From an uncultured Bacteroidales bacterium (lineage in GTDB: Bacteria > Bacteroidota > Bacteroidia > Bacteroidales > UBA3663): a stretch of 64,000 nt of DNA. The notes under the pieces are model-generated. The model made no database searches. It worked only from the letters and a program-made list of their open reading frames with translations, and was not told the origin of the DNA. Both the position numbers and the translations under genes were made by a program. This document shows positions 15,831 to 31,243 of this stretch, piece after piece; the first letter of the stretch is position 1; every line of letters begins with the position of its first letter. The stretch is taken from assembly GCA_937899265.1 (NCBI GenBank), contig CALBPV010000036.1:2184-66183 (forward strand), given 5' to 3'.

Positions 15831-15849
15831 CGGTCATATTATTGAGAGC

Positions 15850-16030
15850 TTATTGCTCGTCATGCAGTGCCGCAAAGCTGACCGAGTGCGGCTTAAAACA
15901 GGAAGAGGGGTGTGAATCCTCCGCTGTCCCGCAACTGTGATGTCCCTGTGGTCCGGTGTTGCCCTTGTCAATGCGATACCCCGACCGGGACTAAGCCAGG
16001 AGACTTGCTGCGTGATGCCTGCCACCCAAG
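15850..16030 (+). promoter_or_regulatory. Cobalamin (B12) riboswitch
   Basis: The conserved core is readable: cttaaaacaggaagaggggtgtgaatcctccgctgtcccgcaactgtga. This compares with the consensus GGUUAAAAGGGAA..GGUG..AAUCC..GCUG.CCCGCAACUGU. A B12 box aagccaggagacttgc lies at about 15982-15998. The element sits in the 5' leader of a TonB-dependent receptor. Confidence 0.8.
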
Positions 16031-16076
16031 TCCCGCGATCGACGGGATGCAGACGAACATCTTTATAGAACGAACC

Positions 16077-18023
16077 ATGCGTTTCTGCGCATCTTTGCTT
16101 ATTGCCTTTTTCTCGGCGACAGGGGTCTTTGCCTCTGTCAGGTCGGACACTCTGCGTGAAGTGGTTGCCGAATCGCGGCGCCCCGAACACAGCGTGAGCC
16201 TCTCTTCGACCTCACCCTCCGAATCCGTCTCCGCTGTCGCCATGAAGCGTCTCGGGCTCCGGGGAGTGAGCGATGTGCTCCGCCTCATGGGAGGCATCTC
16301 TGTGCGTGACTACGGAGGGTTGGGAGGCATGAAGACGGTTTCTGTTCGCGGCCTCTCGCCCCACCATACCGCTGTCCTTCTGGACGGTCTGCCAGTCTCC
16401 AATTCACAGGCCGGACAGATTGACCTCTCGCGATTTGCAACCTACAACATGGAGTCGTTGCGCCTCCACATCGGTGGACCTTCCCGCATCCTGGCTCCGG
16501 CGCTCCTGGGTGCCTACTCTGGGTCGGTGGCTATGGAATCGCACTCCGAAGGTTGTGAAGCCGTTGTCGAATACGGTTCGTGGAACACGCTCAGTGCCGA
16601 TTTCTCCTCGCCGTGGGCCTCTGTGCTCTATAACCACACCGACGGGGACTATCCCTTCACGCTAAGCAACGGACAGCATTCCTCAAGACTGCATCGTGAC
16701 CACGGACGCGTCGATGCTCTCCAGGCCGCGTTACCCTCCTTCCTCCGCTGGACCTCCGGGCCTTCCTGTTCATTCTCTCTTCGCAGCTCTCTCCAGGGGT
16801 ATTATTCCCATCGCGAGTTGCCCGGCTCGGTCGTCTATTACACCAACGAAGGCACCGAGCAACTGTGGGACCTCAACCTCTCGGCCCGCACGCGTCTCGA
16901 AGGAATGATTTCCGAAAAATGGTCCCTTGTGGCTGGTCTCCAGTATAACTACGGGTGGAACAAATACTTCGATGCCGCTCTGGTCACCGACGGCTCAGAC
17001 GGCACTTCACGCTATCGTCAGAACGAATACTATCTCACGGCAGGTCTCGCCTACCGTCCGCTTCGCTCGCTCTCGCTGGCATTGGTCCACGATGGACAGT
17101 GGTCCTCCCTGCGCACCAATCTCACCGGGGGAGAACAGCCCGACCGCTGGATTTCGTGGAATGCCCTCCGCGTTCGTTACCGCACCTCCCGGCTCAACAT
17201 CGAAGGCGAACTGCTGGCCACCGTCCATCGTCTCCGCGAGACCTCCGGCCTCCATGCCTCGCCGTCTGCCTCTTGCCGATGGACTCCCTCATTGGCGGCT
17301 TCGGTTCAACCCTGGGCCACTCAGTCCTTTTTCGTGCGTGCCTCCTGGCGCAAGTCGTTCCGCCTGCCTTCGTTCAACGACCTCTACTACTATCGTCTCG
17401 GCAACCACGACCTCCGTCCCGAACAGGCCACCGAAACCAACGTTGGCCTCACATGGGGTCATGAGTCCGAAACGTGGAAGACGGAGCTCACTGCCGATTT
17501 CTACTTCAATCGCGTCACCGACAAGATTGTGGCCTTTCCCACTACCTTCGCCTGGCGTATGACCAACTTCGGACGGGTCGATATCCTCGGATTGGATTTG
17601 GGCGGCAATATGGAGTGGCGCTCCGAACAGGTGTCCGTCAACGCTGTGTTCCACATCTCCTGTCAAGATGCACGCGACCGCACAGATTCCGAAGATTCTT
17701 TCCTCGCCACCCCGTCGGCCATCCCCTACACGCCTGCCGTCACGGGCAATGCCTCCCTCTCCTGCGTCATGCCCTGGGTCTCTGTCGGATGGACACTCAA
17801 CTGGATGGGCCGACGCTATTCCAACGTCATAGAGAGCGACCGTTACCGACTCGACCCTTTTGCCGAACACGGATTCTCTCTTTCGCGTGTATTTTATTTA
17901 AAAGGTGTGGAACTCATTCCGCAAGCCTCGCTGCTCAATGCTTTCGACAGTCATTTCGAGATAGTACAATATTATCCCATGCCAGGTCGTCATTGGCGAC
18001 TCGGCCTGACAGCCAGATTCTGA
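16077..18023 (+). CDS. btuB: TonB-dependent receptor, BtuB-like
   Basis: Start taken at MRFCASLLIAFFSATGVFA (signal peptide). Plug motifs DVLRLMGGISVRDYGGLGGMKTVSVRGLSPHHTAVLLDGLPV are present, and the protein ends in Phe. It follows a B12 riboswitch. Confidence 0.85.
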   Translation: MRFCASLLIAFFSATGVFASVRSDTLREVVAESRRPEHSVSLSSTSPSESVSAVAMKRLGLRGVSDVLRLMGGISVRDYGGLGGMKTVSVRGLSPHHTAVLLDGLPVSNSQAGQIDLSRFATYNMESLRLHIGGPSRILAPALLGAYSGSVAMESHSEGCEAVVEYGSWNTLSADFSSPWASVLYNHTDGDYPFTLSNGQHSSRLHRDHGRVDALQAALPSFLRWTSGPSCSFSLRSSLQGYYSHRELPGSVVYYTNEGTEQLWDLNLSARTRLEGMISEKWSLVAGLQYNYGWNKYFDAALVTDGSDGTSRYRQNEYYLTAGLAYRPLRSLSLALVHDGQWSSLRTNLTGGEQPDRWISWNALRVRYRTSRLNIEGELLATVHRLRETSGLHASPSASCRWTPSLAASVQPWATQSFFVRASWRKSFRLPSFNDLYYYRLGNHDLRPEQATETNVGLTWGHESETWKTELTADFYFNRVTDKIVAFPTTFAWRMTNFGRVDILGLDLGGNMEWRSEQVSVNAVFHISCQDARDRTDSEDSFLATPSAIPYTPAVTGNASLSCVMPWVSVGWTLNWMGRRYSNVIESDRYRLDPFAEHGFSLSRVFYLKGVELIPQASLLNAFDSHFEIVQYYPMPGRHWRLGLTARF

Positions 18024-18088
18024 ACAGAATAAAAAGACGGCAATATAACGAAATAACGAAATAATGAATAACTTTAACAACAAAAAAA

Positions 18089-19183
18089 ATGAAGAAAACA
18101 ATCCGCTTTTCGTCACTGGCCCTTGTGGCCTGCATTCTGCTGGCCGGCTGTGAAGGGGACGATTTCAAGTACCCCGAAGAACCCGTCAACTATGCTGTTG
18201 TCCCCTATGGCTATGTCCTCAATCAGGGCAGCTGGGGTTCCAACAATGCCTCCCTTTCTGCCATCTACCTTCGTGGCGGACAGTATATGGTGAGTCCCGA
18301 CTTCTATCTCAAAAACAACGGACAGAACCTCGGCGACCAAGCTCAGGACATCCTCATGAGCGAGGGCGGGCGCGTGTTTGTGAGTGTCACCAATTCCAAG
18401 TACATCGCCAAGCTCGACCGCAACGGTGTGGAACTGGCCCGCTACAGCGACTTCACCAACGGCCCCCGTTCATTTGTTGAGGCCGACGGCGACCTTTTCC
18501 TTTCGACCTACGACGGCAAAGTGCTGCGCTTCGACACCGCTACCCTCACACCCAAAGCCACCTACGAGTTGGGAGCCTGGCTCGAGGACATCGCTGTGGC
18601 TGAAGGCAACGTTGTGGTCTCCAACTCCGACTACACCGGCATGGGGCTGGGCCACTCGCTGGGCATCATCAACGTGGCTTCCGGACGTGTCACCGAAGTG
18701 GAGTGTGCTCCCAATCCCACCCGTCTGGTGGCTTGGAACGGCGATTTCTTCTTCACCACCACCGAGTATGATGCCTCTTGGAATGCCGTCACCAAGGTGT
18801 GGTGTCTGTCCGATGCCGGTGCGGCCAACACCATCGACTCCGTCACCTTGGCCACCAATCTCTATCCCACCGACAACTGCCTCCTCATGATGAAGCAGAC
18901 GGTCAACTATTACGTCACGCCCTACGCCTACTCCAACAATTTTCTTTCCTACAGCAACGGAACAGTGAGTGCCGTCGAGCCATTCAAGACGGACCTCTCC
19001 TCGGCTCCTGTCTATATGGTTCAGCAGCACGGAGACAACCTCTATGTGGGCATCTCCAACTATGCGGCATCGGGTTCGGTGCTCAACTCGTCGCTTCTCA
19101 TTTTCGACCTTGAGGGCAATCTCGTCCAGCGTATTTCCGATGCCGGCGGTGTCTTCCTCTCCAAGATTGTCTTTGCCGAATGA
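18089..19183 (+). CDS. Surface lipoprotein, beta-propeller-like repeats (YncE/DUF5074-like; possible BtuG-type corrinoid binder)
   Basis: Lipobox MKKTIRFSSLALVACILLAGCEGDD. Has a NQGSWGSNNASLSAI motif and repeated blade-like segments (VFVSVTNSKYIAKLD, LFLSTYDGKVLRFD, VVVSNSD, FFFTTTEYD, LYVGISNY). Lies between btuB and btuF. Confidence 0.65.
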   Translation: MKKTIRFSSLALVACILLAGCEGDDFKYPEEPVNYAVVPYGYVLNQGSWGSNNASLSAIYLRGGQYMVSPDFYLKNNGQNLGDQAQDILMSEGGRVFVSVTNSKYIAKLDRNGVELARYSDFTNGPRSFVEADGDLFLSTYDGKVLRFDTATLTPKATYELGAWLEDIAVAEGNVVVSNSDYTGMGLGHSLGIINVASGRVTEVECAPNPTRLVAWNGDFFFTTTEYDASWNAVTKVWCLSDAGAANTIDSVTLATNLYPTDNCLLMMKQTVNYYVTPYAYSNNFLSYSNGTVSAVEPFKTDLSSAPVYMVQQHGDNLYVGISNYAASGSVLNSSLLIFDLEGNLVQRISDAGGVFLSKIVFAE

Positions 19184-20319
19184 GACGGCTCCCTCTGTTC
19201 CTTCTGATGTTGCTTGCTGTGGCCTGTACCGGGCCGCAGCAGGAGACTCGGCTGGTGTCTGCCCGTGTGGAATATGCCACGTTGCTCCAAATGCAGGATA
19301 CCTGTCGCGGAACCCTGTGCCGCATCATCAATCCATGGGACACCACCCGAGTGCTGATTCAATATTTCCTGCTGCCCGAAACGGACACGTTGTTCTCCGA
19401 GGCGGAGGCGGAAAGTCTGGAGCATCACTACGGAAAGTTTACCCTCGTCCGTACACCGCTCTCACGCAATACCGTTTGTGCGTCATGCCACTGCTACCTC
19501 CTCCGCGAACTTGGTGCCCTTGACTGCATGGCTGTTGTCTGCGATGCCGACTATACCCAGCTCCCAGATGTTCGCAAACGTCTCGCCGACGGCTCTCTCC
19601 TCGATGCCGGCACGGCCATTGCGCCCAACATCGAGGTGCTCCTTTCTGCCCAAAGCGATGCCATTTGGATTTCTCCCTTCGAGAATGCCGGTCTCGGACA
19701 GCTCTCGTTGCTCCGCATCCCCGTCATCTTCTGTGCCGACTATATGGAGAACACTCCGCTGGCGCGGGCCGAATGGATGAAGTTCTACGGACGGCTTGTG
19801 GGCCGTGCTGCCGAAGCCGATTCTCTCTTTGCCGTTGTACGCAGCAACTATCTGCGCCTCGCTGTGGCTCCCTCCGACACCCTGTCGCGCCCCGTTCTGC
19901 TGGTGGATTTGCCCACTTCTGCCACGTGGTATGTGCCGGGCGGACGTTCCACCATGGGACATCTCTATCAGGATGCAGGCTTCCGCTATCCCTGGGCTTT
20001 CGACACCCATGCCGGCTCGTTGTCGCTTTCTCCCGAAGTGGTGCTTGACGACGGATGGGAAGCTGATGTTTGGCTTTTCAAGTATTACAATACCGGGCGC
20101 GACTGGACACTCTCCGACCTCCGGGCTCTCTCGCCCGCATTCGGTTCGTTGCGGGTGGTTCGCGAGGGGAACTTGTGGGGATGCAACACCGCAACGTCTC
20201 CCTATTTCGACGAGACGCCTTTCCGTCCCGACCTTCTGCTTGGCTCGCTGCGTCGAATCGCCCTTCCCGCCGACACGTTGGCTCCCGATTCCCTGCCTGT
20301 CTATTTCCGTCCGTTATGA
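19180..20319 (+). CDS. ABC transporter periplasmic substrate-binding protein, BtuF/TroA-like
   Basis: Lipoprotein signal MRRLPLFLLMLLAVAC. An ATGA start/stop overlap links it to the previous gene and also to the next gene. Layout is class III binding-protein-like (...DAGTAIAPNIEVLLSAQSDAIWISPFE...). Confidence 0.75.
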   Translation: MRRLPLFLLMLLAVACTGPQQETRLVSARVEYATLLQMQDTCRGTLCRIINPWDTTRVLIQYFLLPETDTLFSEAEAESLEHHYGKFTLVRTPLSRNTVCASCHCYLLRELGALDCMAVVCDADYTQLPDVRKRLADGSLLDAGTAIAPNIEVLLSAQSDAIWISPFENAGLGQLSLLRIPVIFCADYMENTPLARAEWMKFYGRLVGRAAEADSLFAVVRSNYLRLAVAPSDTLSRPVLLVDLPTSATWYVPGGRSTMGHLYQDAGFRYPWAFDTHAGSLSLSPEVVLDDGWEADVWLFKYYNTGRDWTLSDLRALSPAFGSLRVVREGNLWGCNTATSPYFDETPFRPDLLLGSLRRIALPADTLAPDSLPVYFRPL

Positions 20320-21281
20320 AACGTTTTCTCTTCCTTTCTGTGGTGCTTTTGGCCCTCGGAGTGGCCAATATCCTCTGCGGCTCGGTCTCCCTCGGGGCTG
20401 ATGAAGTATGGGCTGCCCTCACGGGCGGCGAGGGTGTGAGCGCCCCTCATCGGTTCTTTGTGCTCCACGTCCGTGTGCCTGCGGCCATCACCGCAGCCCT
20501 TACGGGGGCGGCTCTCAGTGTATGCGGTCTGACACTCCAAAGCTATTTCCGCAATCCGCTGGCGGGTCCTTCCGTGCTGGGCATCACCTCCGGAGCCAAT
20601 CTCGCCGTTGCCATCGTCATGCTCATGGGTGTCATGTCGCCGGCAGCCCTTACAGGTTCTGCCCTTGTGGGTGCTATGGCTGTACTCCTCCTGCTTTTGG
20701 CTCTCACCCGGTGGATACGACAGGATCTCACGTTGCTCATCATCGGTGTCCTGCTTTCCTATCTCGTTTCGGCCATTATCACTCTGCTCAATTATTATGC
20801 CACCGCCGACGGCGTGCAGAGCTATATGATTTGGGGGATGGGCAATTTCGGCGGCGTGGGTTCTGAACATCTGGCTTTTTACAGTCTCACCGTTCTCACA
20901 GGCCTTCTCCTCACCGTCTTCCTCATCAAACCGCTCAACGGATGGTTGCTGGGCACCGACTATGCCCTCAGTCTCGGCATCTCCCCCTCGATTACACGTC
21001 TCCTCGTCCTTCTCTCCACCGGCATTCTCGCGGCTGTCACTACCGCCTATTGCGGCCCCATTTCGTTCGTAGGACTCAGCGTTCCCCATTTGGCCCGTCT
21101 GGCCTTCCATAGCGATGACCATCGCCGCCTCTTGCCTGCCACAGCGCTCCTGGGAGCCATTCTCACCTCTCTGTGTCTCCTTCTCAGCACCCTTCCTGCA
21201 GAGGGACGCCTCCTTCCCATCAACGCCCTCACCCCCATTTTCGGCTTCCCCGTCGTCCTCTATATCCTGCTCCGCAAATAA
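20316..21281 (+). CDS. FecCD-family ABC permease (BtuC-like)
   Basis: Start at MKRFLFLSVVLLALGVANILCGSV (ATG 20316). About 9-10 hydrophobic spans. FecCD signature region GVLLSYLVSAIITLL...WGMGNFGG. Confidence 0.9.
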   Translation: MKRFLFLSVVLLALGVANILCGSVSLGADEVWAALTGGEGVSAPHRFFVLHVRVPAAITAALTGAALSVCGLTLQSYFRNPLAGPSVLGITSGANLAVAIVMLMGVMSPAALTGSALVGAMAVLLLLLALTRWIRQDLTLLIIGVLLSYLVSAIITLLNYYATADGVQSYMIWGMGNFGGVGSEHLAFYSLTVLTGLLLTVFLIKPLNGWLLGTDYALSLGISPSITRLLVLLSTGILAAVTTAYCGPISFVGLSVPHLARLAFHSDDHRRLLPATALLGAILTSLCLLLSTLPAEGRLLPINALTPIFGFPVVLYILLRK

Positions 21282-21591
21282 TCTTGAAACTTGAAACTTG
21301 CATCAGTGCCGAGGAACAGACCAGCGACCCGTCTGGGTCGTAGGGCTGAACATCAGCGAGAACCGCCACACCATCGACCGGTGGAAGGTCGTGCAGGTGA
21401 AGCGCCCCCGCTTCTTGATGCTTAAAGTTTCCCACACTTCCCAATGTGTGCAGAATATAAAGTCCAGTCAGCAAGAAGGGGGCTGTCGGCACAAGTTCCT
21501 AATCCGAGGAAAACAGTGAGCGCATTGAGTGCAAAATGAGAGCAAATATTTTTTCTCCCAACACGTCACATGGGCACGAAATCTGGGCTCC

Positions 21592-22014
21592 CCGGCAAAA
21601 TCCTGTGTTCGAAAACAGTTTGATTTAGGGGGCGTTACCGTCCGTTTGGGTCCATCGATAATCGATGGCGGCTTAAAAAACTTTTTGCGAGTCCATCGTC
21701 CGACGATAGAGGCTCGGAAAACTTTTTGCGGATCCATCGATAATCGATGGCGGCTCAAAAAACTTTTTGCAGGTCCATCGTCCGACGATAGAGGCTCGGA
21801 AAACTTTTTGCGGGTCTATCGATATCCGATGGCGGCTTAAAAAACTTTTCGCGGGTCTATCGATATCCGATGGCGGCTCAAAAAACTTTTTGCAGGTCCA
21901 TCGGAGTCCGATAGGGTCGTCAACGCCCCTTTTGGGTTCATCCGATTCGGTTGGATTCAAAACGGGTCGTTGATGCCCCCAATCAAACTATTTTCGAACA
22001 CAGGGTTTTGCCGG
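21592..22014. repeat. 423-bp non-coding element bounded by imperfect terminal inverted repeats of about 40 bp (MITE-like)
   Basis: Left arm, 21592-21632: ccggcaaaatcctgtgttcgaaaacagtttgatttaggggg. Reverse complement of the right arm, 21976-22014: ccggcaaaaccctgtgttcgaaaatagtttgattggggg. They differ by 2 mismatches and a 2-nt indel. Confidence 0.6.
21651..21915. repeat. Tandem array of six exact-period 41-bp units plus a partial seventh, each with an internal palindrome
   Basis: Units start at 21651, 21692, 21733, 21774, 21815, 21856 and 21897. Type A reads tccatcgataatcgatggcggctYaaaaaactttttgc; type B reads tccatcgtccgacgatagaggctcggaaaactttttgc. The order is A B A B A' A'. Confidence 0.9.
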
Positions 22015-22182
22015 TGAGCGATTGTTACGCGAAGTTCGGGAATCGTGACTCGTGACTCGTGAAATTATCCTGGACAAGCACTCCACCGGCGTCGGGGCGG
22101 GTCTATATGGTCATGAGAAACAGGACGCACAGCTCTATTTCCGCGACAGGAGCTTGACCTCTTCAGAGCGCTGCAATGTGGG

Positions 22183-22485
22183 TTATAGTCTGCCCTCTTT
22201 CAGGACTTTATATCTCCGCTGAAGGGCCACCAAGACACTTCTTTCGGCCATGGGATTGAGCCCTCTGAATGTCGTGTGCTGTTTGAGTTCATCCAACGAC
22301 ATCTCCATGAGAAGTTTTGCAATGCACTCATCGGCGAAGGAGTTGGATACAACATTGACACCTGTAAAGTCAAGAACGACTTTCTCACCTCCATGGATTA
22401 ACAGCAGCAGTTTTTCGCGAAGTTTCCGCCCCATCTCCCGTGTGCCGAAATCTGTTCCATATTCTATAAACCTGAATTCTACCAT
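22183..22485 (-). CDS. STAS-like domain protein (DUF4325-type)
   Basis: 100 aa: MVEFRFIEYGTDFGTREMGRKLREKLLLLIHGGEKVVLDFTGVNVVSNSFADECIAKLL... The VVLDFxGV..xSxSF pattern is as in SpoIIAA/RsbV-like STAS folds. Its ATG overlaps the stop of the upstream GHKL gene by 7 nt. Confidence 0.65.
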   Translation of the reverse strand: MVEFRFIEYGTDFGTREMGRKLREKLLLLIHGGEKVVLDFTGVNVVSNSFADECIAKLLMEMSLDELKQHTTFRGLNPMAERSVLVALQRRYKVLKEGRL

Positions 22486-23129
22486 AATGATTCCAATTCT
22501 TCTGTTTCTACAAATGTTTCATTATATTCACATACGGCATCGGTCCGATGATCAACCACTTGATTGGCATCTATTTCCTTGCCCGTACTGATTTCCATAT
22601 AGATGAGAGTTCCTTGCCAAAAACCGTTTTCCCAAACGTCAGTCTTGCCATCCTTGATGATTAATTTGTGACTACCTGAATGCAGAATAAAACGTTTGCC
22701 TATATCATTGACAAGCCTTGCTGTAGTATATAACCCGAAGCCCATACCCTTTCCGTCGGTTATGGCATCTTGCAGACATAGACGAAGGGCATCTGCTTCA
22801 GTTATGTCCCTGTATTGGACGTTTTCGCTCAGTGACTTTCGGATACCCTTCCCGTCGTCTGCTATCAGTATTCGCAGTGTGGACTCCTCCCTGTCGTAAC
22901 AGGTAATTGCCGTCCCCAAAGGCTTGCCCGAATGAATGTGCACATTGTCCATTATCTCATAGAGGCAATAACTGAGTGCTTGCAACACGCTGACTTCTAT
23001 CTCAAAATGAGAGGTCATCGCATTGACAACGTTTTTATATACTGTATTCAATGTCTGGGCATCAAACACATCTATCGAAGGATTGGCAGCTCCTTTGAAA
23101 TATCTGTCTAAGAGGAATGCTATATCCAT
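22479..23129 (-). CDS. GHKL-superfamily ATPase, RsbW/SpoIIAB-like (histidine-kinase-like ATPase domain only)
   Basis: N-box EIMDNVHIHS, G1 LRILIADDGKGI and G2 DGKGMGFGLYTTARL. Start moved from TTG (23171) to ATG MDIAFLL (complement 23127-29), because a -7 box overlaps the TTG. Confidence 0.7.
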   Translation of the reverse strand: MDIAFLLDRYFKGAANPSIDVFDAQTLNTVYKNVVNAMTSHFEIEVSVLQALSYCLYEIMDNVHIHSGKPLGTAITCYDREESTLRILIADDGKGIRKSLSENVQYRDITEADALRLCLQDAITDGKGMGFGLYTTARLVNDIGKRFILHSGSHKLIIKDGKTDVWENGFWQGTLIYMEISTGKEIDANQVVDHRTDAVCEYNETFVETEELESLW

Positions 23130-23168
23130 TAGGCCTTGTTTAATACATTTAAAGAGAATATTCGGCTG

Positions 23169-23176
23169 CAAAGTTA
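23169..23176 (-). promoter_or_regulatory. -7 box (TAACTTTG on minus strand) for the GHKL/STAS pair
   Basis: The plus strand reads caaagtta, about 40 nt upstream of ATG 23129. Confidence 0.45.
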
Positions 23177-23290
23177 CATTTTTTTTTGAAAATACAAAGC
23201 TTCCAAACCGTTAAAAGTAAAAAACTACGGTAAAAGCCCCACCGGTTCAGCACGAAACGTCATCTTTGTCCGCCAAATTTGGAACTAGAA

Positions 23291-24571
23291 TCAGTTTTGG
23301 AGCAACCACTCGAGAGCAGAGCGGATGTGAATGATATGACCGGAGAGAAGCGTCTCGCGAGTCTCCGAGAGTGTTATCAGTGTGAGATTGTCGCATCGGA
23401 GTATGTTGGAGGCTTGTACCAACGCATTTGTTTCCCGGGAGAGAGTTTTGGGCGAGTCGATATCGTATGCCACTTGTACCAACTCTATCGTACGCCCCTG
23501 TTCGCATACGACAAAATCAACCTCCTTGCTACGGCTGGAGGGTTTGTAATAGTAGATGTCGTAGTACAACGGAGCTGCCCTGCGAAGCAATTCGATATAT
23601 ACAATATTCTCCAACCGCCAACCGGCATTCTGTCCGACCAGACTGTCTGTCCTATTGGCTATCAGACCTGTGTCGATGACGTATGCTTTGGAATCTCGCA
23701 AGCGCTCCCGGCTTTTGAATGAGAACTTATGAATTTGCAGAATAAGAAAAGCTTGCATCAGGTAGTTCACATATTTTTTGGTAGTCACCGGGCTTCCGAT
23801 ACCGAACAGTCGGGTCAATTCATCGTAGTTTATTTCCTGACAGTTGTTGTTGATTAGGTGATTGGCAATCAATTGGAGAGCCTCCACATTTCGCAGGTGA
23901 AAGCGTTGACGGATATCTTTGTGGATAATGGTGCCTATCAGCCCTTGCACGTATGCCCTCTTGTTGCGGATGTGCATAAGTTCCGGGAAGCCGCCGTTAA
24001 CCAGGTATTCTGCCCAAGCTGCCTTTACCGCTGCCTTGGCTTTGGTGGTCAGCCCGCGAGTGTCAGTCTTCAGATATGAGCAGTATTCGGCAAAGGAAAA
24101 GGGGAAAAGGCGGATTTCATTGTACCGTCCGGTCAGATGTGAGGAGAACTCGCTACTGAGTAATTTGGCATTTGATCCTGTCACGAAAACATGGAATCCC
24201 GTTCGAAGCAGGCGATTGACAAAAAGATGCCATCCTTCGACGTTCTGTATCTCGTCCAAAAGGATATAGTTGATGTCCTGCCCATACAACTGGTAGATGC
24301 AACTGAGCAGTGTATTGAGATCAGGGGTTTTAAGGTCGAAAAAACGGTCGTCGTCGAGGTTGGCGTAAGCGTACCTGATCTGATGTTGGAGTAGCACTTT
24401 GTGGCAAAGTGTGGACTTGCCAGAGCGGCGCACACCTATAACGACTTGCGCCAAGGGGCTGTCGAACTCGAATAGCTCCTCTTCCATTCGGCGAGTCCAA
24501 CTCGAAAATTTCATTCCGGCTACCTCGTCCTTCTGCTCGGCAAGCACTTCGAGGATGATGTTTTCTGTCAT
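23291..24571 (-). CDS. AAA+ ATPase with C-terminal DUF4143 (COG1373 type)
   Basis: 426 aa with Walker A GVRRSGKST and Walker B YILLDEIQ. The C-terminal end has a restriction-endonuclease-like EVDFVV...ELVQVAYDI segment. Confidence 0.8.
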   Translation of the reverse strand: MTENIILEVLAEQKDEVAGMKFSSWTRRMEEELFEFDSPLAQVVIGVRRSGKSTLCHKVLLQHQIRYAYANLDDDRFFDLKTPDLNTLLSCIYQLYGQDINYILLDEIQNVEGWHLFVNRLLRTGFHVFVTGSNAKLLSSEFSSHLTGRYNEIRLFPFSFAEYCSYLKTDTRGLTTKAKAAVKAAWAEYLVNGGFPELMHIRNKRAYVQGLIGTIIHKDIRQRFHLRNVEALQLIANHLINNNCQEINYDELTRLFGIGSPVTTKKYVNYLMQAFLILQIHKFSFKSRERLRDSKAYVIDTGLIANRTDSLVGQNAGWRLENIVYIELLRRAAPLYYDIYYYKPSSRSKEVDFVVCEQGRTIELVQVAYDIDSPKTLSRETNALVQASNILRCDNLTLITLSETRETLLSGHIIHIRSALEWLLQN

Positions 24572-24602
24572 ATCTTCAATATTTTTGAATCTTTTGTGGG
24601 GA

Positions 24603-24610
24603 CAAAGATA
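24603..24610 (-). promoter_or_regulatory. -7 box (TATCTTTG on minus strand) for the DUF4143 ATPase
   Basis: The plus strand reads caaagata, 32 nt upstream of ATG 24571. Confidence 0.5.
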
Positions 24611-24638
24611 CGTTTTTTTTCCAAATGAGCAAAAAAAA

Positions 24639-24745
24639 GTGTAGTAAAATGCAGATTTTCGGGTCCAAAAGTGTAGTAAAATGCAGATTTTCGGGTTCTA
24701 AAGTGTAGTAAAATGCAGATTTTCCGACTAAAAAGTGTAGTAACC
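24639..24745. repeat. Three exact-period 32-bp direct repeats plus a partial fourth
   Basis: gtgtagtaaaatgcagattttcgggtccaaaa (24639), gtgtagtaaaatgcagattttcgggttctaaa (24671), gtgtagtaaaatgcagattttccgactaaaaa (24703) and gtgtagtaacc... (24735). The array sits immediately upstream of the ATPase promoter. Confidence 0.9.
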
Positions 24746-24856
24746 TGCCGGTTAAATCTCCGACATTGGATGGATTAAGTATACGGGCGGCCAGCGTAAT
24801 CCCAAGCCGCCGTTTCGACAAGTCTCATCACAAACCCGAAATTCCTTTTGCCTCAA

Positions 24857-25519
24857 TCAGTCTCTGTTCATCACGCTTTCCGCCAACAAATACACTCGCG
24901 TACCGAGTGTTTGCGGCCAACGGTCAGAAGGATTCTTGTCCAACGTCCTTGCCCGTTTTATCGCGTCTTCCACATGAGTTATCAAAGCCTGTGCATCGTA
25001 GGATGACTCATGATAAGCCCCCATCTTCCGGCGTAACCGCACCTTCAAATATGGGTCGGCATTTTTAGATTTTCGGCGATTCTCCATCCATAGAATCTGT
25101 TCCTCGGGTGTCACTGATGCTGAATCTTCTATATGCAATAATAGCCAAAGTTCGAAACAAGGATTGCTTAATGCCATGTGCATAGCGACTTCCTGTGAAC
25201 ATTCCGTGGCAACACGAGAAAGCATGGCCTCAGTCCAGCGGTCTTTATCTACTACTAACCAGAGTTCGTCGTCTGCCTCTAACTCATATTGGCTTTTGTA
25301 GTCATTGAGCTGTTTCAACACATGTTCAGGACTGGAGTTGTTTTGTTCATCTGCACTACGTTCCAGAATATGTACGTGCACACGGGGATTGGTATATTCT
25401 TTGGCTAATGCCTTGAAATATATCCGCTCCGTGTCTTTGCCCTCGGAGGCTATGACTATGAGGCGAGCGTCACGAAATGCCTCGCGACGTTCACGCATCA
25501 AACTATTCCTGCTTCGCAT
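24857..25519 (-). CDS. RloB-like protein (AbiLii-like)
   Basis: Motifs IVIASEGKDTERIYF, LWLVVDKDRW and ALSNPCFELWLLLH match the RloB family signature. Overlaps the upstream ATPase gene by 17 nt. Confidence 0.85.
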   Translation of the reverse strand: MRSRNSLMRERREAFRDARLIVIASEGKDTERIYFKALAKEYTNPRVHVHILERSADEQNNSSPEHVLKQLNDYKSQYELEADDELWLVVDKDRWTEAMLSRVATECSQEVAMHMALSNPCFELWLLLHIEDSASVTPEEQILWMENRRKSKNADPYLKVRLRRKMGAYHESSYDAQALITHVEDAIKRARTLDKNPSDRWPQTLGTRVYLLAESVMNRD

Positions 25520-26846
25520 TGTCCCAATGAATATTATTCAGTTCACCAAAGAATGGAATTGCTCCATAGCGACCGTTCAGATAACCTTTCTGCACATTCT
25601 CCCTTGGCTTGTACTCACAGAGTGAAGACAAATGGCTTTCTCCTTTCTTGTCTTTCTCCACAAACCATACTTCATCTTGGCGGACAGGGGCTGTAGAAAG
25701 CAAATTTGATTCGTGTGTTGTGCATATTAACTGCATCTGCGAGTCGCTTCTGAGCAAACTGTTGTACAACTCCAATAATTTCAATGTCAACATCGGGTGT
25801 AAGCTCCTGTCAACCTCGTCAATCACATAGACTGCATCATTGGCACGCATATCGATAAGCATTGGAATGAAGTCGAACAAGCGTGACGTTCCATCGGACT
25901 CTTCGAACATTTCGAAGATATAGTCCGAGTTGCTGTCATCCTTCTTGTGGATGGTTTTCAGCTCTTGCCACTTCAGATTCTTCGACTTGTCTTTTTCTGC
26001 AATGATGAAGCGGTTCTCATTGTGAATCACCACCCCGATTTCGGCTCCTTTGCCTTCAAGAGCCTCCTCAACCTTTTGCCGAATATCATCGTGAATGCCC
26101 AATTCTTCAGGTTTTGACTCTACACGACAAAGGTCGGAGATGCCTGTTCCGAAATAATTCAGAAGTTCGCGCATCACGGTTCTGAATTGGGTGTCGTTTA
26201 CAACTCGGAACGGGAAATCTGTTCTGTGTGTATTTGGGAAGATGACATTCAGATTCTCAAACCATTTTCGGGCAGACTTAATCGCATCAATTCCCTTTCC
26301 GTTTCGCTTGATATACTCACTAAGGAAAGTACCCTTGGTAGGAGTACCATCAATCAAGAATTTCAAGAATTGTCCATCCTCATCCTTCATGTACTGTGTA
26401 GCAATTACATTTTCCCAGTTGTCGGCAGAACGCTTGCGCTCAAAAATCATGGTGTCATTACGACTGCCCGTCTTATACAGCCATTCCTCCAGCAAACCGC
26501 CTTTAGAGAAAGCTATACCGTAAGCAAAGAACTGGTTTTCTGCCTTGAACTCCAATTCGATACACGAACGCTCTTGAGGAGCATCCGTCATCTTGAAATA
26601 GTTATATTTTAGATTACTCCAGCCATTCAGGGCAAATTCTTTGACAATAGCCAAACATTTTATGATATTTGACTTTCCGGAAGCATTGGCACCATAAATC
26701 AATCCCATGCGGAGTACGGATAAATCATCCCGTTTCTCCGCACGTGACACTTGCAACGGCAATTGGTCGCTCTTGCTGGCTGTAAACAAGATGCGCGTTT
26801 CCTCGTTAAATGAGTAAATGTTTTCAAATTTGGCTGACAATAACAT
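25503..26846 (-). CDS. AAA_21/ABC-type ATPase (AbiLi/RloA-like)
   Basis: Walker A GANASGKSN, Walker B VYVIDEVDRSLHP and the TTHES motif. Start set to ATG MLLSAKFENIYSF (complement 26844-46), because the longer ORF starts at TTG and contains the -7 box. Confidence 0.85.
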   Translation of the reverse strand: MLLSAKFENIYSFNEETRILFTASKSDQLPLQVSRAEKRDDLSVLRMGLIYGANASGKSNIIKCLAIVKEFALNGWSNLKYNYFKMTDAPQERSCIELEFKAENQFFAYGIAFSKGGLLEEWLYKTGSRNDTMIFERKRSADNWENVIATQYMKDEDGQFLKFLIDGTPTKGTFLSEYIKRNGKGIDAIKSARKWFENLNVIFPNTHRTDFPFRVVNDTQFRTVMRELLNYFGTGISDLCRVESKPEELGIHDDIRQKVEEALEGKGAEIGVVIHNENRFIIAEKDKSKNLKWQELKTIHKKDDSNSDYIFEMFEESDGTSRLFDFIPMLIDMRANDAVYVIDEVDRSLHPMLTLKLLELYNSLLRSDSQMQLICTTHESNLLSTAPVRQDEVWFVEKDKKGESHLSSLCEYKPRENVQKGYLNGRYGAIPFFGELNNIHWDNAKQE

Positions 26847-26878
26847 AACAACGTCTGATATTTCGTAAATTTTCGTTG

Positions 26879-26886
26879 CAAAGATA
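26879..26886 (-). promoter_or_regulatory. -7 box (TATCTTTG on minus strand) for the ATPase/RloB operon
   Basis: The plus strand reads caaagata, 33 nt upstream of ATG 26846. Confidence 0.5.
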
Positions 26887-27079
26887 ACCAATTATTTTAA
26901 AAATCAGACAATTATTCACGTTAAATATGTATAAATACGACAAATATTATGCCATATAATACTGTTTTGTCAGTTAATGGCACAGTTATTCGACAAATTT
27001 GACAATTCTACAATATATTAAAGGTAATATAAGGCGCTATGCTTTGTTCGCCAAAACCGGGCAGGAAATCAACGACTGG

Positions 27080-28474
27080 CTATTCCCAACACTCGAGATC
27101 CTGCTCTATCTCGGGCAACTGTTCGCGGCGGAAGACAGGTTCGCGAATGCCGCGCCGTTTCTGGCTGCGATAGTCATCGAGCAGGCGGAAGGCATATTTG
27201 CCCAGCAGCACGATGGCGACAAGGTTGCAGGCGGTGAGCAAAGCCATGCAGAAGTCTATCATGCTCCAAACCGTCTCCAGTGTGGTCCAAGCTCCGAAGA
27301 GCACCATCACACCGCCGGACAGCAGACGATAGGCGGTCATGGCCGAGCGGCTCTGCGTCATGAAGCGCACGTTGGCCTCGCCGTAGTAATAGTTGCCTAT
27401 TATCGAAGAATAGGCGAAGAGGAAGATGGCCACAGCCACGAAGACGGGTCCCCATGCCCCCACCTCCGACTGGAGGGCAGCCTGTGTGAGCATGATGCCG
27501 TTCAGTTCGGGCGAAGTGTAGAGACCGCTGATGAGGATGATGAAGGCCGTGCAGGAGCAGACCACGAGGGTGTCGGTGAAAACTCCCAGCGCCTGAATAA
27601 GTCCCTGCTTGACCGGATGGGAGACAGAAGCCGTGGCCGCTGCATTGGGGGCACTGCCCTCGCCGGCCTCGTTGCTGAAGAGTCCGCGCTTCACACCGTT
27701 CATGATGGCAGCACCGAGCGTGCCGCCCACTGCCTGCTCCACACCGAAAGCACTCCGAACGATAACAGCCAGCACATGGGGGATATGTTCGATGTTCATC
27801 ACGATAATGACCACAGCGAGAATGAAATAGCCCACCGCCATGACGGGCACAAGCACGGAGCTGACTTTGGCAATGCGCTGTATGCCGCCGAAGACAATGA
27901 CGAGCGTCAGCAGGGCAAGCAGCACACCGGTCACCATGGGACTCCACCCGAAGGCACCCTCCATGGCTCCGCAAATGGTGTTGGTCTGCACAGAGTTGTT
28001 GGCCAGACCGAACGACACCGTAATGAGCACGGCAAAAAGCACGGCCATCCAGCGGCAGTGGAGTCCCCGCTGAATATAGTAGGCCGGGCCGCCGATGAAC
28101 GAGTCCCGGTGATGTTGTTTGTAGAGCTGGCCCAGCGTCGATTCGACAAAGGCGGTAGCCCCTCCCACCAACGCCATGACCCACATCCAGAAAACGGCAC
28201 CGGGGCCACCCACGGCAATGGCAGTGGCCACACCGGCGAGGTTGCCTGTGCCCACACGCGAAGCCAGCGAGACAGCAAACGCCTGGAACGACGAGATATG
28301 CTTCTGACCGCCATCGGGTTTGCCCGTCGAGTCGGTGAGCAGTCGCAACATCTCGCCCACCATGCGGAACTGCACAAAACGGGTGCGCCATGTGAACCAC
28401 AGGCCGCACCCTATAAGTGCCGCGATGAGGACGTAGCCCCATAGCGCGTCGTTGATTTGATTCAGTATTTCCAA
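27080..28474 (-). CDS. Alanine/glycine:cation symporter (AGCS family)
   Basis: 464 aa, polytopic. The N-terminus reads (M)EILNQINDALWGYVLIAALIGCGLWFTWRTRFVQF and there is an AGVATAIAVGGPGAVFWMW motif. An apparent TTG start lies 1 nt after the nagB stop. Confidence 0.88.
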   Translation of the reverse strand: MEILNQINDALWGYVLIAALIGCGLWFTWRTRFVQFRMVGEMLRLLTDSTGKPDGGQKHISSFQAFAVSLASRVGTGNLAGVATAIAVGGPGAVFWMWVMALVGGATAFVESTLGQLYKQHHRDSFIGGPAYYIQRGLHCRWMAVLFAVLITVSFGLANNSVQTNTICGAMEGAFGWSPMVTGVLLALLTLVIVFGGIQRIAKVSSVLVPVMAVGYFILAVVIIVMNIEHIPHVLAVIVRSAFGVEQAVGGTLGAAIMNGVKRGLFSNEAGEGSAPNAAATASVSHPVKQGLIQALGVFTDTLVVCSCTAFIILISGLYTSPELNGIMLTQAALQSEVGAWGPVFVAVAIFLFAYSSIIGNYYYGEANVRFMTQSRSAMTAYRLLSGGVMVLFGAWTTLETVWSMIDFCMALLTACNLVAIVLLGKYAFRLLDDYRSQKRRGIREPVFRREQLPEIEQDLECWE

Positions 28475-28475
28475 A

Positions 28476-29273
28476 TTACAACAGGATGTTGTTCTGCTCC
28501 TTCTCCTTGAAGTACTTGAAGGTGGCTACTTTGAGTTCATCACAAGCATCCTCGTCGCAGACAATGATGCCGTGCCGGTGCATCTGGAGGGCAGAAACCG
28601 TCCACATGTGGGATACGGAGCCTTCGATGACGGCCTGAAGGGCACGTGTCTTGGCGTGGCCGTTGACGAGAATCATCACCTCGCGTGCGTCCATCACGGT
28701 GCCTACACCGACGGTGAGGGCGAACTGGGGCACATTGTTGGGATCGCCTCCGAAGAAACGGCTGTTGGCGATGCGGGTGTCGGAGGTAAGAGTCTTCATG
28801 CGGGTGCGGCTGGTGAGCGACGAGCCGGGTTCGTTGAAAGCAATGTGACCGTCGGGACCGATGCCGCCCACGAAGAGGTCGATGCCGCCGAACTTGAGAA
28901 TCTCCTTCTCATACTCCTCACATTCCTTCTTGAGGTCCTCGGCATTGCCGTTGAGGATGTGGATGTTCTCGGGCTTGATGTCAATATGGTTGAAGAAGTT
29001 GTTGAACATGAAGCTGTGGTAGCTCTCGGGATGGCTCTCGGGCAGGCCTACATACTCGTCCATGTTGAAGGTTACAACGTTCTTGAACGAAACGATGCCT
29101 TCCTCGTTGGCCTTGATGAGGGCTTTGTACATGCCGAGCGGGCTGCTGCCTGTGGGGAGACCCAGCACGAAGGGATGGCTGGCTGTGGGTTTGGCGGCAT
29201 TGATTTTGCCGATGACGCGATTTGCTGCCCACTGGGACATCAAATCGTAAGAAGGTTCAATAATGACTCTCAT
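28476..29273 (-). CDS. nagB: Glucosamine-6-phosphate deaminase
   Basis: 265 aa: [17 protein letters not shown]...[13 protein letters not shown]...FNMDEYVGL...[18 protein letters not shown]. These are classical NagB motifs. Confidence 0.92.
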
Positions 29274-29319
29274 AAGTGTATATTTAATTGGTTCAAATGT
29301 TCAGACAGGGTCCGGAAGA

Positions 29320-31185: not shown

Positions 31186-31243
31186 ATATCCTTAGTTTTC
31201 TTGGAAATTTGCTGTTTGAGACAATTTGTTGTTAAGTTGGGTG

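What the first reader, a model, noticed from the sequence alone, without database searches (positions are those of the whole stretch)
21282..27079. Low-GC accessory island of about 5.8 kb that replaces the expected ABC ATPase gene of the cobalamin importer
Composition, from hand counts of single 60-nt lines:
- Inside the island G+C is 38 % (line 22501), 47 % (23761), 35 % (25501) and 42 % (26281).
- In flanking genes G+C is 53 % (12061, metH), 63 % (20401, btuC-like) and 67 % (27601, symporter).

Content: a repeat element and three unrelated NTPase-based modules (GHKL+STAS, AAA+/DUF4143, AAA_21+RloB), all on the minus strand. This is typical of defence islands.

Edges: the island starts right after the stop of the FecCD permease. 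btuB-lipoprotein-btuF-btuC are linked by ATGA overlaps, but no ATP-binding subunit follows. I see no integrase, transposase, tRNA or clear direct repeats at the edges.
Basis: partly seen in the sequence, partly recalled or inferred. Interest (0 to 1): 0.75.

Follow-up and report, generated by a model that had tools for sequence, protein, structure and literature searches.

The report
Defence-gene island; no lost btuD
A real 5-kb low-GC patch of three horizontally acquired, mostly phage-defence-type gene cassettes in a rumen/bioreactor Bacteroidales genome; it did not replace a vitamin B12 transporter ATPase, and it probably lies next to the B12 operon only because of a join inside a 433-bp repeat.

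Summary
The low-GC stretch is real: 45.4% G+C against 54.0% for the rest, the lowest of all 5.8-kb windows. It holds three cassettes, each with its own promoter:
- AbiL (AbiLi ATPase plus AbiLii/RloB TOPRIM).
- An AAA_14-DUF4143 ATPase (PADLOC candidate PDC-S01).
- A SpoIIAB-like GHKL kinase plus a STAS-like DUF4325 protein.

"Replaces btuD" fails on three counts:
- Two other assemblies of the same species (about 99-100% identical) show btuC-repeat-peptidase C1 with no btuD. They place the island next to dnaX, not btuC.
- A sister species (btuC 83% identical) ends btuB-btuG-btuF-btuC directly at a convergent gene.
- 21 of 49 Bacteroidales loci of this type have no btuD homologue.

The window equals the btuC-side repeat copy up to 21744 and the island-side copy from 21803. 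It switches inside 58 bp that are identical in both copies. The adjacency is therefore an assembly chimera (favoured) or a very recent recombination.

No integrase, tRNA or flanking direct repeats were found, and no island-free strain. The AbiL cassette is 82-94% identical in protein across many Bacteroidales genera, which is clear horizontal transfer.

The island is ordinary. The minimal kinase-STAS pair is the only mildly novel part.

The parts
15848..16026 (+). Cobalamin riboswitch leading the btuB operon. A Bacteroidetes -7 promoter motif TATCTTTG lies at 15823-15830.
   Evidence: Rfam RF00174, 70.5 bits, E 2.2e-15. TAnnTTTG scan.
16047..18023 (+). btuB-like TonB-dependent receptor (658 aa as called in L081).
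   Evidence: Plug and TonB_dep_Rec_b-barrel domains. Gene call in L081.
18089..19183 (+). BtuG-like surface lipoprotein (beta-propeller).
   Evidence: No Pfam hit. phmmer matches PDB 8blw_B, 8ptf and 8ptd 'YncE family protein', E 3e-16 to 3e-17. That these entries are BtuG is from my memory.
19180..20319 (+). btuF-like periplasmic binding protein.
   Evidence: Peripla_BP_2, E 1.3e-11. ATGA overlaps with both neighbours.
20316..21281 (+). btuC-like FecCD permease, the last gene of the operon.
   Evidence: FecCD, E 1.9e-69. The exact protein is also on FLNU01000326.
21282..21586 (.). Native 3' flank of btuC. It is not part of the island.
   Evidence: Matches btuC contigs L081, L339 and L261, which carry no island genes in the fetched stretch. 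G+C 0.515. No btuD remnant.
21587..22019 (.). Repeat element R. It has 44-nt terminal inverted repeats (21587-21630 and 21976-22019) around about 6.5 tandem 41-nt palindrome-containing units. In this window it is a hybrid of two genomic copies.
   Evidence: TRF and the repeat finder. Single-strand fold -118 kcal/mol, z -10.3. Copies A (btuC-pepC) and B (dnaX-island) are aligned.
21745..21802 (.). Crossover interval: 58 bp identical in R copies A and B. The window matches copy A at every informative site up to 21744 and copy B at every one from 21803.
   Evidence: The SPAdes contig L087 ends exactly at 21745.
22020..22182 (.). Spacer between R and the island genes. It is specific to the island/dnaX locus.
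   Evidence: Identical to L086 and near-identical to L082 and L087. Unrelated to L081.
22183..22485 (-). STAS-like DUF4325 protein (100 aa), the presumed kinase substrate or partner.
   Evidence: PF14213, E 2.6e-14. Weak match to VapS (PDB 9z7o), E 0.008; S47 and S49 flank the column that appears to hold the VapS phospho-serine, by my count from chain length. Overlaps the kinase gene by 7 nt.
22479..23129 (-). GHKL ATPase/kinase of the anti-sigma-factor (SpoIIAB/RsbW) type (216 aa). Its -7 promoter motif lies at 23169-23176.
   Evidence: HATPase_c_2 and HATPase_c, E about 2e-6. AF2 model pLDDT 92.4. Foldseek top hits are SpoIIAB, probability 1.00, TM-score on target 0.73-0.76. N-box, G1 and G2 residues are invariant in 28 relatives. 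Promoter motif.
23291..24571 (-). AAA_14 + DUF4143 ATPase (426 aa), PADLOC candidate PDC-S01. Its -7 promoter motif lies at 24603-24610.
   Evidence: Pfam E 3.5e-33 and 4.1e-21. PDLC04787, E 1.5e-98. Nearest homologues are 79% identical. Promoter motif.
24635..24743 (.). Tandem repeat of 32 bp x 3.4, just upstream of the AAA_14 promoter. Function unknown.
   Evidence: TRF score 176, 90% matches. The repeat finder family D1.
24857..25519 (-). AbiLii / RloB TOPRIM protein (220 aa).
   Evidence: PF13707, E 2.2e-35. PADLOC AbiLii, E 8.9e-22. The motifs 'ASEGKDTE' (Glu) and 'VVDKDRW' (DxD) are read from the translation.
25503..26846 (-). AbiLi ABC-type (AAA_21) ATPase (447 aa). It overlaps AbiLii by 17 nt.
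   Evidence: PF13304, E 7.9e-27. PADLOC AbiLi, E 1.3e-78. Walker A 'GANASGKS', Walker B 'VYVIDEVD' and H-loop 'TTHES' are read from the translation.
26847..27079 (-). AbiL upstream region with the -7 motif TATCTTTG (26879-26886). Homology to the AbiL cassette in other genera ends at about 26945-27062.
27080..28474 (-). Na+/alanine symporter, the native-composition right neighbour of the island in all conspecific assemblies.
   Evidence: PF01235, E 1.2e-160. G+C 0.595. Loci L082-L084.

Best explanation
Positions about 22020-27062 are a composite of three gene cassettes. Each has its own promoter, and all appear horizontally acquired (shown directly only for AbiL).

1. AbiL. AbiLi is an ABC/AAA_21 ATPase and AbiLii/RloB is a TOPRIM protein. 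This is an OLD-like two-gene abortive-infection system. By analogy with PARIS, OLD and Gabija, the ATPase senses infection and releases or activates the TOPRIM nuclease (inferred).
2. A single AAA_14-DUF4143 ATPase (PADLOC candidate PDC-S01). Its mechanism is unknown.
3. A SpoIIAB/RsbW-type GHKL serine kinase with a translationally coupled STAS-like DUF4325 partner. This is a minimal relative of the CapK/CapS and VapK/VapS kinase-substrate pairs. The kinase presumably phosphorylates a serine (S47 or S49) of the STAS protein in response to a stress or phage cue (inferred).

In this species the island sits between the Na+/alanine symporter and, across a copy of the 433-bp repeat R, the 3' end of dnaX.

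The cobalamin operon (riboswitch-btuB-btuG-btuF-btuC) natively ends at btuC without a btuD. It is followed by another copy of R and then a peptidase C1 gene. Nothing was replaced.

In this window the two loci are joined inside a 58-bp stretch that the two R copies share. The most likely cause is a short-read assembly chimera (my estimate about 0.6). Otherwise it is a very recent homologous recombination between the R copies (about 0.35).
For: Composition.

Domain and PADLOC assignments.

Separate Bacteroidetes -7 promoter motifs 32-40 bp upstream of each module's ATG.

AbiL as an independent, widely transferred cassette:
- 78-90% nucleotide and 82-94% protein identity in about 50 Bacteroidales species. 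Homology is limited to about 24863-26950 (to 27062 in some). AAA_14, GHKL and STAS are never adjacent.
- Its neighbours elsewhere are sometimes defence genes: a type III restriction enzyme, an OLD-like nuclease, other AAA_21/AAA_15 ATPases.
- AbiL is grouped with ABC ATPase + TOPRIM systems in PMC11464382.

GHKL-DUF4325 as a conserved two-gene cassette:
- It keeps the same 7-nt overlap in unrelated contexts.
- Fused GHKL-DUF4325 and HTH-GHKL-DUF4325 relatives exist.
- Fold is closest to SpoIIAB/RsbW.
- The STAS protein weakly matches VapS.
- CapKS and VapKSC biology: PMC13373217.

No btuD in this lineage.

Island next to dnaX: FLNY01004988 (203 kb) and FLNU01000384.

Hybrid repeat with one switch in 21745-21802.

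The FLNU01 contigs are identical or nearly so (at most 3 mismatches) to the window outside R, yet carry the parental junctions. SPAdes and MEGAHIT contigs break inside R.

The window's source seems to be a draft assembly. btuC lies on a 68.7-kb contig, and pepC lies on an unread 33.7-kb contig that I presume belongs to the same assembly.
Against: - No read-level data, so chimera and real recombination cannot be separated. A 58-bp identity is enough for RecA-type recombination.
- All three other assemblies (from two or three strains) that cover this locus carry at least the part of the island they span. No empty site was found, and synteny around the symporter and dnaX is lost in other species. 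'Accessory' therefore rests on composition and cross-genus identity only.
- Defence function is not demonstrated for any module here. PDC-S01 is only a candidate.
- The GHKL-DUF4325 pair had no significant PADLOC hit. In two other genomes it sits beside a polysaccharide-utilisation locus and giant surface proteins, not defence genes.
Confidence: 0.8

Rival explanations
1. One reading: a 5.8-kb accessory island integrated directly after btuC and displaced the btuD ATPase gene of a btuBFCD operon.
For: btuC is the last gene of an operon linked by ATGA overlaps. No ATPase follows it, and the G+C drop begins nearby. 26 of 49 comparable Bacteroidales btuB-lipoprotein-btuF-btuC loci do have btuD after btuC.
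Against: - Conspecific contigs without the island next to btuC also lack btuD (L081, L339).
- The sister species ends at btuC, with a convergent gene 20-40 bp away.
- No btuD remnant is present.
- 21 of 49 comparable loci have no btuD homologue in the fetched locus.
- The island's other neighbour in the two other assemblies that span it is dnaX.
- Positions 21282-21744 are native btuC-flank sequence.
Confidence: 0.03
2. The btuC-island junction is real. Homologous recombination between the two R copies (an inversion or translocation) in this strain or subpopulation brought the island next to the B12 operon.
For: - A single clean switch lies inside 58 bp of identity, which is long enough for RecA-dependent exchange.
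- Both R copies lie between convergent genes next to variable low-GC defence cassettes: a NotI-like R-M system beside copy A in FLNY01, and the island beside copy B. These sites are therefore plastic.
Against: - The FLNU01 contigs are identical or nearly so to the window outside R, yet carry both parental junctions.
- FLNY01 shows both parental junctions on 66.6-kb and 203-kb contigs.
- Other short-read assemblers break at exactly this repeat.
- The hybrid junction is seen in no other contig.
- The reciprocal dnaX-R-pepC junction could not be looked for.
Confidence: 0.33
3. Only AbiL is a defence system. On this view the AAA_14-DUF4143 gene and the GHKL-DUF4325 pair are regulatory or selfish (toxin-antitoxin-like) cassettes that are low-GC for the same reason, horizontal transfer. 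The stretch would then be a mixed accessory patch rather than a defence island.
For: - The GHKL-DUF4325 pair had no significant PADLOC match.
- Its contexts in two other genomes are a polysaccharide-utilisation locus and giant surface proteins.
- AAA_14-DUF4143 proteins are a very large family in this order, with more than 7700 hits at E below 1e-50. PDC-S01 is an unvalidated candidate (my knowledge of PADLOC).
Against: - Related kinase-STAS pairs (CapKS, VapKSC) control or constitute anti-phage systems (PMC13373217).
- A DUF4325-like stretch matches part of a PADLOC DrmA model.
- Three NTPase modules are clustered next to a bona fide Abi system.
Confidence: 0.35

Closest known systems
AbiL (AbiLi/AbiLii) abortive-infection system; the RloA/RloB-type ABC ATPase + TOPRIM class related to OLD, Gabija and PARIS
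   Same: Two overlapping co-oriented genes. They match the PADLOC AbiLi (E 1.3e-78) and AbiLii (E 8.9e-22) models and carry AAA_21 and RloB domains. ATPase and TOPRIM motifs are intact. PMC11464382 places AbiL among ABC ATPase + TOPRIM defence systems.
   Different: Nothing notable. This is a Bacteroidales variant that circulates as a cassette of about 2.1-2.2 kb at 82-94% protein identity across genera. Its trigger and nuclease target are unknown.
PADLOC phage-defence candidate PDC-S01 (AAA_14 + DUF4143 single-gene ATPase)
   Same: Full-length match to PDLC04787 (E 1.5e-98) with the same two-domain architecture.
   Different: The family is a candidate only. No function has been tested here or, to my knowledge, elsewhere.
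CapK/CapS regulators and the VapK/VapS/VapC toxin-antitoxin system (Chambers et al., EMBO J 2026, PMC13373217)
   Same: An anti-sigma-factor-like GHKL kinase gene is immediately followed by a small STAS-domain gene. The STAS protein weakly matches VapS, and serines flank the column that appears to hold the VapS phospho-serine. Longer relatives of the kinase carry an extra N-terminal domain of about 110 aa, as VapK does.
   Different: The kinase has no HTH or STAS domain (216 aa). The STAS protein has no wHTH (100 aa). There is no VapC/PIN gene and no downstream immune operon; downstream lie repeat R and the convergent dnaX. The output of the pair is therefore unknown.
SpoIIAB-SpoIIAA / RsbW-RsbV partner-switching modules
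   Same: The best structural matches of the AF2 model are SpoIIAB and RsbW. HATPase_c_2 is matched, and a STAS-type partner is encoded in the same operon.
   Different: There is no cognate sigma factor or PP2C phosphatase gene nearby. The kinase has a conserved C-terminal extension of about 50 aa (WQGT motif and a terminal Trp). The pair behaves as a mobile cassette.
Bacteroides btuB-btuG-btuFCD vitamin B12 uptake loci
   Same: Cobalamin riboswitch, TonB-dependent receptor, BtuG-like lipoprotein, BtuF and BtuC in one operon.
   Different: There is no btuD. This btuD-less form recurs in conspecifics, in the sister species and in 21 of 49 comparable Bacteroidales loci.

Membership tests
AbiL | Adjacent, co-oriented AbiLi and AbiLii genes that match the family profiles | tested here: met
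   PADLOC PDLC02335, E 1.3e-78, and PDLC02337, E 8.9e-22. The genes overlap by 17 nt.
AbiL | ABC/AAA_21 ATPase motifs and TOPRIM (RloB) catalytic residues intact | tested here: met
   PF13304, E 7.9e-27, and PF13707, E 2.2e-35. Walker A GANASGKS, Walker B VIDEVD and H-loop TTHES, plus the TOPRIM Glu (SEGK) and DxD (DKD), are read from the translations.
AbiL | Abortive-infection phenotype against phage | not testable with these tools
   Needs phage challenge of a host carrying the cloned cassette.
PADLOC PDC-S01 | Single protein with AAA_14 and DUF4143 domains matching a PDC-S01 profile | tested here: met
   PDLC04787, E 1.5e-98, over residues 27-425. PF13173 and PF13635.
CapK/CapS | CapK architecture HTH-STAS-GHKL | tested here: not met
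   The protein has 216 aa and only HATPase_c/HATPase_c_2 hits. The AF2 model's best structural matches are the single-domain kinases SpoIIAB/RsbW, and I saw no HTH or STAS domain in its secondary-structure layout.
CapK/CapS | CapS = STAS plus a C-terminal wHTH; the pair sits upstream of an immune operon | tested here: not met
   The protein has 100 aa and only DUF4325. Downstream lie a 164-bp spacer, repeat R and the convergent dnaX.
VapKSC | Third gene encoding a VapC/PIN nuclease | tested here: not met
   No ORF follows the STAS gene here or in homologous cassettes L249-L260.
VapKSC | VapS-like STAS protein with a conserved phospho-acceptor Ser/Thr | tested here: inconclusive
   phmmer against 9z7o_A gives E 0.008. 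By my count from chain length (134 vs 116 residues), the VapS S48 column aligns with N48, flanked by S47 and S49.
SpoIIAB/RsbW partner switch | Anti-sigma-factor-type GHKL kinase fold with N, G1 and G2 boxes | tested here: met
   Foldseek against SpoIIAB: probability 1.00, TM-score on target 0.73-0.76. E58, N62, D91, G93, G95, G130 and G132 are invariant in 28 relatives.
SpoIIAB/RsbW partner switch | Cognate sigma factor and/or PP2C phosphatase in the module | tested here: not met
   The island genes have no such domain. The nearest sigma-70-family gene, an ORF at window 5812-6378 by correspondence with L261, is about 16 kb away in an unrelated context.
btuBFCD-type cobalamin importer | Cobalamin riboswitch plus TonB-dependent receptor, binding protein and FecCD permease in one operon | tested here: met
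   RF00174, E 2.2e-15. Plug/TonB_dep_Rec, Peripla_BP_2 and FecCD. BtuG-like lipoprotein.
btuBFCD-type cobalamin importer | Adjacent BtuD/FecE-type ABC ATPase | tested here: not met
   None in the 64-kb window and no remnant. Also absent in conspecific contigs and the sister species. The rest of the genome could not be searched.
Integrative genomic island | Integrase or recombinase, a tRNA or other att site, and flanking direct repeats | tested here: not met
   The five island genes have no integrase domain. The only tRNA is at 15627. There are no flanking direct repeats.
Integrative genomic island | Presence/absence polymorphism among close relatives | tested here: inconclusive
   All three other assemblies that cover the locus carry at least the part of the island they span. 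Synteny is lost in other species, so there is no empty-site comparator.

The most novel reading that the evidence does not exclude
The GHKL kinase + DUF4325 (STAS-like) pair may be a self-contained, horizontally mobile stress- or phage-sensing module of a new type. It is a minimal cousin of CapK/CapS and VapK/VapS that lacks every known output: no DNA-binding domain, no nuclease partner and no sigma factor. If so, either the phosphorylated STAS protein or the kinase's conserved C-terminal extension acts on an unknown, possibly host-encoded, target. A secondary possibility is that repeat R really does mediate exchange of defence cassettes between two chromosomal hotspots, with this window capturing such an event.
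Probability: 0.2. Interest if true: 0.55.

Novelty: new member of a known kind. Interest (0 to 1): 0.27.

Why it matters
Mainly as a correction. The apparent 'defence island that knocked out a B12 transporter ATPase' comes from two things: a btuD-less operon type that is common in Bacteroidales, and a junction inside a repeat that other assemblies of the same organism do not support. This shows how a repeat with only 58 bp of shared identity can create a false gene neighbourhood in draft or metagenome assemblies.

Two modest positives remain:
- The AbiL cassette is a clear case of a defence module of about 2.1-2.2 kb circulating at 82-94% protein identity across many Bacteroidales genera.
- The kinase-STAS pair extends the newly described CapK/VapK theme to a stripped-down, widespread two-gene form with 1123 cluster representatives at E up to 0.001. 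Its output is unknown.

Tried and rejected
- Cross-species empty-site test. Eighty loci each around homologues of the symporter and dnaX showed no conserved synteny with any window gene. They could not show an island-free site.
- Metagenome scan for the R/island junction 32-mer. It found only FLNY01004988, which I already had.
- Genome-collection scan for the R terminal inverted repeat. No hits. The species and its repeat are not in the GTDB representative set; the best btuC there is 82% identical.
- My first regex test for btuD next to btuC under-called ATPases. I replaced it with tblastn.
- Permissive tblastn for a btuD remnant in 21201-22200 gave only noise (E at least 0.07, at most 20 bits).
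- GC skew across the junction gave no clear discontinuity.
- Nucleotide search of the island against plasmids and phages found no match.
- NCBIfam gave no family names for the island proteins.
- A sequence search of the GHKL protein against the PDB was uninformative. The fold search was needed.
The reciprocal junction could therefore not be examined.

Full report
**Observation**

A sliding G+C profile shows a sharp drop from about 0.56-0.60 to 0.42-0.50 between about 21.25 and 27.1 kb.
- The stated interval 21282-27079 has G+C 0.454, against 0.540 for the rest of the window.
- It is the lowest of all 5798-bp windows. Windows outside it average 0.536 (sd 0.016, minimum 0.500).
- GC3 of the five island genes is 0.44-0.59, against 0.64-0.76 for btuB/G/F/C, the symporter, nagB and glmS.

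- DUF4325/STAS-like, 22183-22485.
- GHKL ATPase, 22479-23129.
- AAA_14+DUF4143, 23291-24571.
- RloB, 24857-25519.
- AAA_21, 25503-26846.

- No ABC ATPase follows btuC or occurs anywhere in the window.
- The only tRNA is tRNA-Gln at 15627-15698.
- The five island genes have no integrase or transposase domain.
- There are no flanking direct repeats.

**The B12 locus**

- A cobalamin riboswitch (RF00174, E 2.2e-15) lies at 15848-16026. A Bacteroidetes -7 promoter motif precedes it at 15823-15830.
- After it come a TonB-dependent receptor and then a lipoprotein. The lipoprotein matches PDB chains 8blw_B, 8ptf and 8ptd at E 3e-16 to 3e-17. I recall these as BtuG.
- The operon then continues with a Peripla_BP_2 protein and a FecCD permease.

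**Is btuD 'expected'?**

Three independent comparisons say no.

1. Same species.
   - Contig FLNU01000326 (L081) matches window 12607-22018. It then continues into a convergent peptidase C1_2 gene, with no btuD and no island.
   - Contig FLNY01004993 (L339, 66.6 kb, a second strain) shows btuC, the repeat, a 2152-bp low-GC insertion, then the same peptidase, lpxB, surE and parAB. The insertion carries a NotI-like endonuclease and a D12-class methyltransferase. Again there is no btuD.
2. Sister species (btuC 83% identical; six contigs). The order is metH-btuB-lipoprotein-btuF-btuC, followed 20-40 bp later by a convergent Exo_endo_phos gene.
3. Across Bacteroidales. Of 49 loci with btuB, lipoprotein, btuF and btuC homologues, 26 have btuD directly after btuC. 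Another 21 have no btuD homologue in the fetched locus, and 2 have one only upstream on the opposite strand.

A permissive search found no btuD remnant in 21201-22200.

**Where the island really sits**

- Contig FLNY01004988 (203 kb, L082/L085) matches window 21629-38474 at 99.5%. Its order is symporter, AbiLi, AbiLii, AAA_14, GHKL, DUF4325, repeat, then the 3' end of dnaX, followed by DUF805, Rce1-like, EamA and rplM-rpsI-rpsB-tsf.
- Contig FLNU01000384 (L086) shows the same island-repeat-dnaX junction.
- In both other assemblies the island's left neighbour is therefore dnaX, and the right neighbour of btuC is the peptidase.

**The repeat and the junction**

- The repeat R spans 21587-22019. 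It has 44-nt terminal inverted repeats (89% complementary) around about 6.5 tandem 41-nt units, each containing a short palindrome.
- As a single strand it folds far better than shuffled controls (z -10.3).
- Copy A lies between btuC and pepC. Copy B lies between dnaX and the island and lacks the left terminal repeat.
- Site by site, the window equals copy A at all 137 informative positions (including the unique left flank) up to 21744, and copy B at all 187 (including the unique right flank) from 21803.
- The 58 bp between (21745-21802) are identical in A and B.
- Outside R, the FLNU01 contigs differ from the window at only 0-3 positions, so they come from the same strain. Yet they carry the two parental junctions.
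- A SPAdes contig from ERZ842392 ends exactly at 21745. A MEGAHIT contig from the bioreactor metagenome ERZ922529 (ERR1278104) ends inside R.
- The hybrid junction was found nowhere else.
- The source appears to be a draft assembly. btuC lies on a 68.7-kb contig. pepC also lies on a 33.7-kb contig that was not returned, which I presume belongs to the same assembly.
- I conclude that the btuC/island adjacency is most likely a mis-join across a short shared repeat (about 0.6). A very recent R x R recombination is the alternative (about 0.35). Only read-level data can decide.

**What the island is made of**

Each module has its own TAnnTTTG -7 motif 32-40 bp upstream of its ATG, at 23169-76, 24603-10 and 26879-86. 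That this motif marks Bacteroidetes promoters is from my own knowledge.

AbiL:
- PADLOC profiles AbiLi (E 1.3e-78) and AbiLii (E 8.9e-22) both match.
- ATPase and TOPRIM motifs are intact.
- PMC11464382 lists AbiL among ABC ATPase + TOPRIM systems alongside OLD, Gabija and PARIS.
- This cassette, about 24863 to about 26950 (27062 in some genomes), is 78-90% identical in DNA and 82-94% in protein in about 50 species. Examples are Prevotella, Segatella, Xylanibacter, Paludibacteraceae, Parabacteroides, Alistipes and Phocaeicola.
- In those species the other island genes are never beside it. Its neighbours are sometimes other defence genes.
- Core proteins of this organism reach only about 57-88% identity to their best hits. 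This is direct evidence of horizontal transfer.

AAA_14-DUF4143:
- It matches PADLOC candidate PDC-S01 (E 1.5e-98).
- It belongs to a very large Bacteroidales family. The nearest homologues are 79% identical.

GHKL + DUF4325:
- The two genes overlap by 7 nt. They recur with the same overlap, at about 80% protein identity, in rumen metagenome contigs. One such protein is annotated from a Prevotella genome. The contexts there are unrelated: after a polysaccharide-utilisation locus, and between giant surface proteins.
- A library clustered at 50% identity holds 1123 relatives at E up to 0.001.
- These relatives include fused GHKL-DUF4325 and HTH-GHKL-DUF4325 proteins. They also include forms of about 310 aa with an extra N-terminal domain. 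The one such form checked (P0191) is followed by a DUF4325 gene.
- N-box, G1 and G2 residues are invariant in 28 aligned relatives.
- The AF2 model (pLDDT 92.4) is closest to SpoIIAB and RsbW.
- The STAS protein weakly matches VapS (PDB 9z7o, E 0.008). S47 and S49 flank the column that appears to hold the VapS phospho-serine, by my count from chain length.
- The 2026 CapK/CapS and VapKSC paper (PMC13373217) describes related kinase-STAS pairs that respond to DNA damage to control or constitute anti-phage systems.
- The pair here lacks the HTH and STAS domains of CapK, the wHTH of CapS, a VapC gene and a downstream immune operon. It works like these systems at the kinase-substrate level (inferred) but is not a member of either. 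Its output is unknown.

**Limits**

- All three other assemblies that cover the locus carry at least the part of the island they span.
- Synteny around the symporter and dnaX is lost in other species. Strain-level variability is therefore not shown.
- No function was tested.
- The island has no nucleotide match in the plasmid or phage collections.
- The rest of the genome could not be searched for a BtuD-type ATPase.

**Verdict**

This is a genuine but ordinary patch of horizontally acquired, largely defence-type cassettes. The headline claim that it replaced btuD is wrong. Its position next to the B12 operon is probably an assembly artefact at a repeat.

Noticed in passing
L339:11795-13946 (FLNY01004993.1): In a second strain, a 2152-bp low-GC (about 0.45) insertion sits about 90 bp beyond the right end of repeat copy A, between btuC and pepC. 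It carries a NotI-like restriction endonuclease and a D12-class methyltransferase. Both copies of R therefore adjoin variable defence cassettes.
   Followed up: partly
window 24635-24743: A 32-bp tandem repeat (3.4 copies, 90% matches) lies immediately upstream of the AAA_14 gene's -7 promoter motif. Its function is unknown; it could be a regulatory array.
   Followed up: no
window 24812-24933: Contigs of two other assemblies break here. FLNU01000384 and FLNU01000378 abut at 24812/24813, and two ERZ842392 SPAdes contigs overlap at 24879-24933. This is close to the edge of the AbiL cassette homology (about 24863). It suggests graph branching from related cassettes or strain variants in the samples.
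   Followed up: no
L304, L306 (loci): Contigs labelled Roseburia sp. and Oscillospiraceae carry an AbiL cassette 86-87% identical to the Bacteroidales one. This is probably mis-binning, or else cross-phylum transfer.
   Followed up: no
L264-L268, downstream of btuC: In the sister species the region beyond btuC/Exo_endo_phos varies between contigs: different large CHB_HEX_C/Fn3_assoc proteins, and a YafQ-type toxin in one. The 3' side of the B12 operon is therefore plastic there too.
   Followed up: no
window 34142-35460: A stretch of about 1.3 kb with no ORF of 180 aa or more and low G+C (0.46-0.49). No Rfam family reached the gathering threshold. A shorter dip to 0.43 lies at about 31.0-31.5 kb.
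   Followed up: no
window 15627-15698: tRNA-Gln (anticodon TTG) on the minus strand, between metH and the riboswitch-btuB promoter. It is about 6 kb from the island and not at an island edge.
   Followed up: yes
P0192 (420 aa), P0177 and P0180: Relatives of the kinase exist as HTH_3-GHKL-DUF4325 and GHKL-DUF4325 single polypeptides. These are Rosetta-stone fusions linking the two island proteins, with a domain order different from CapK.
   Followed up: partly
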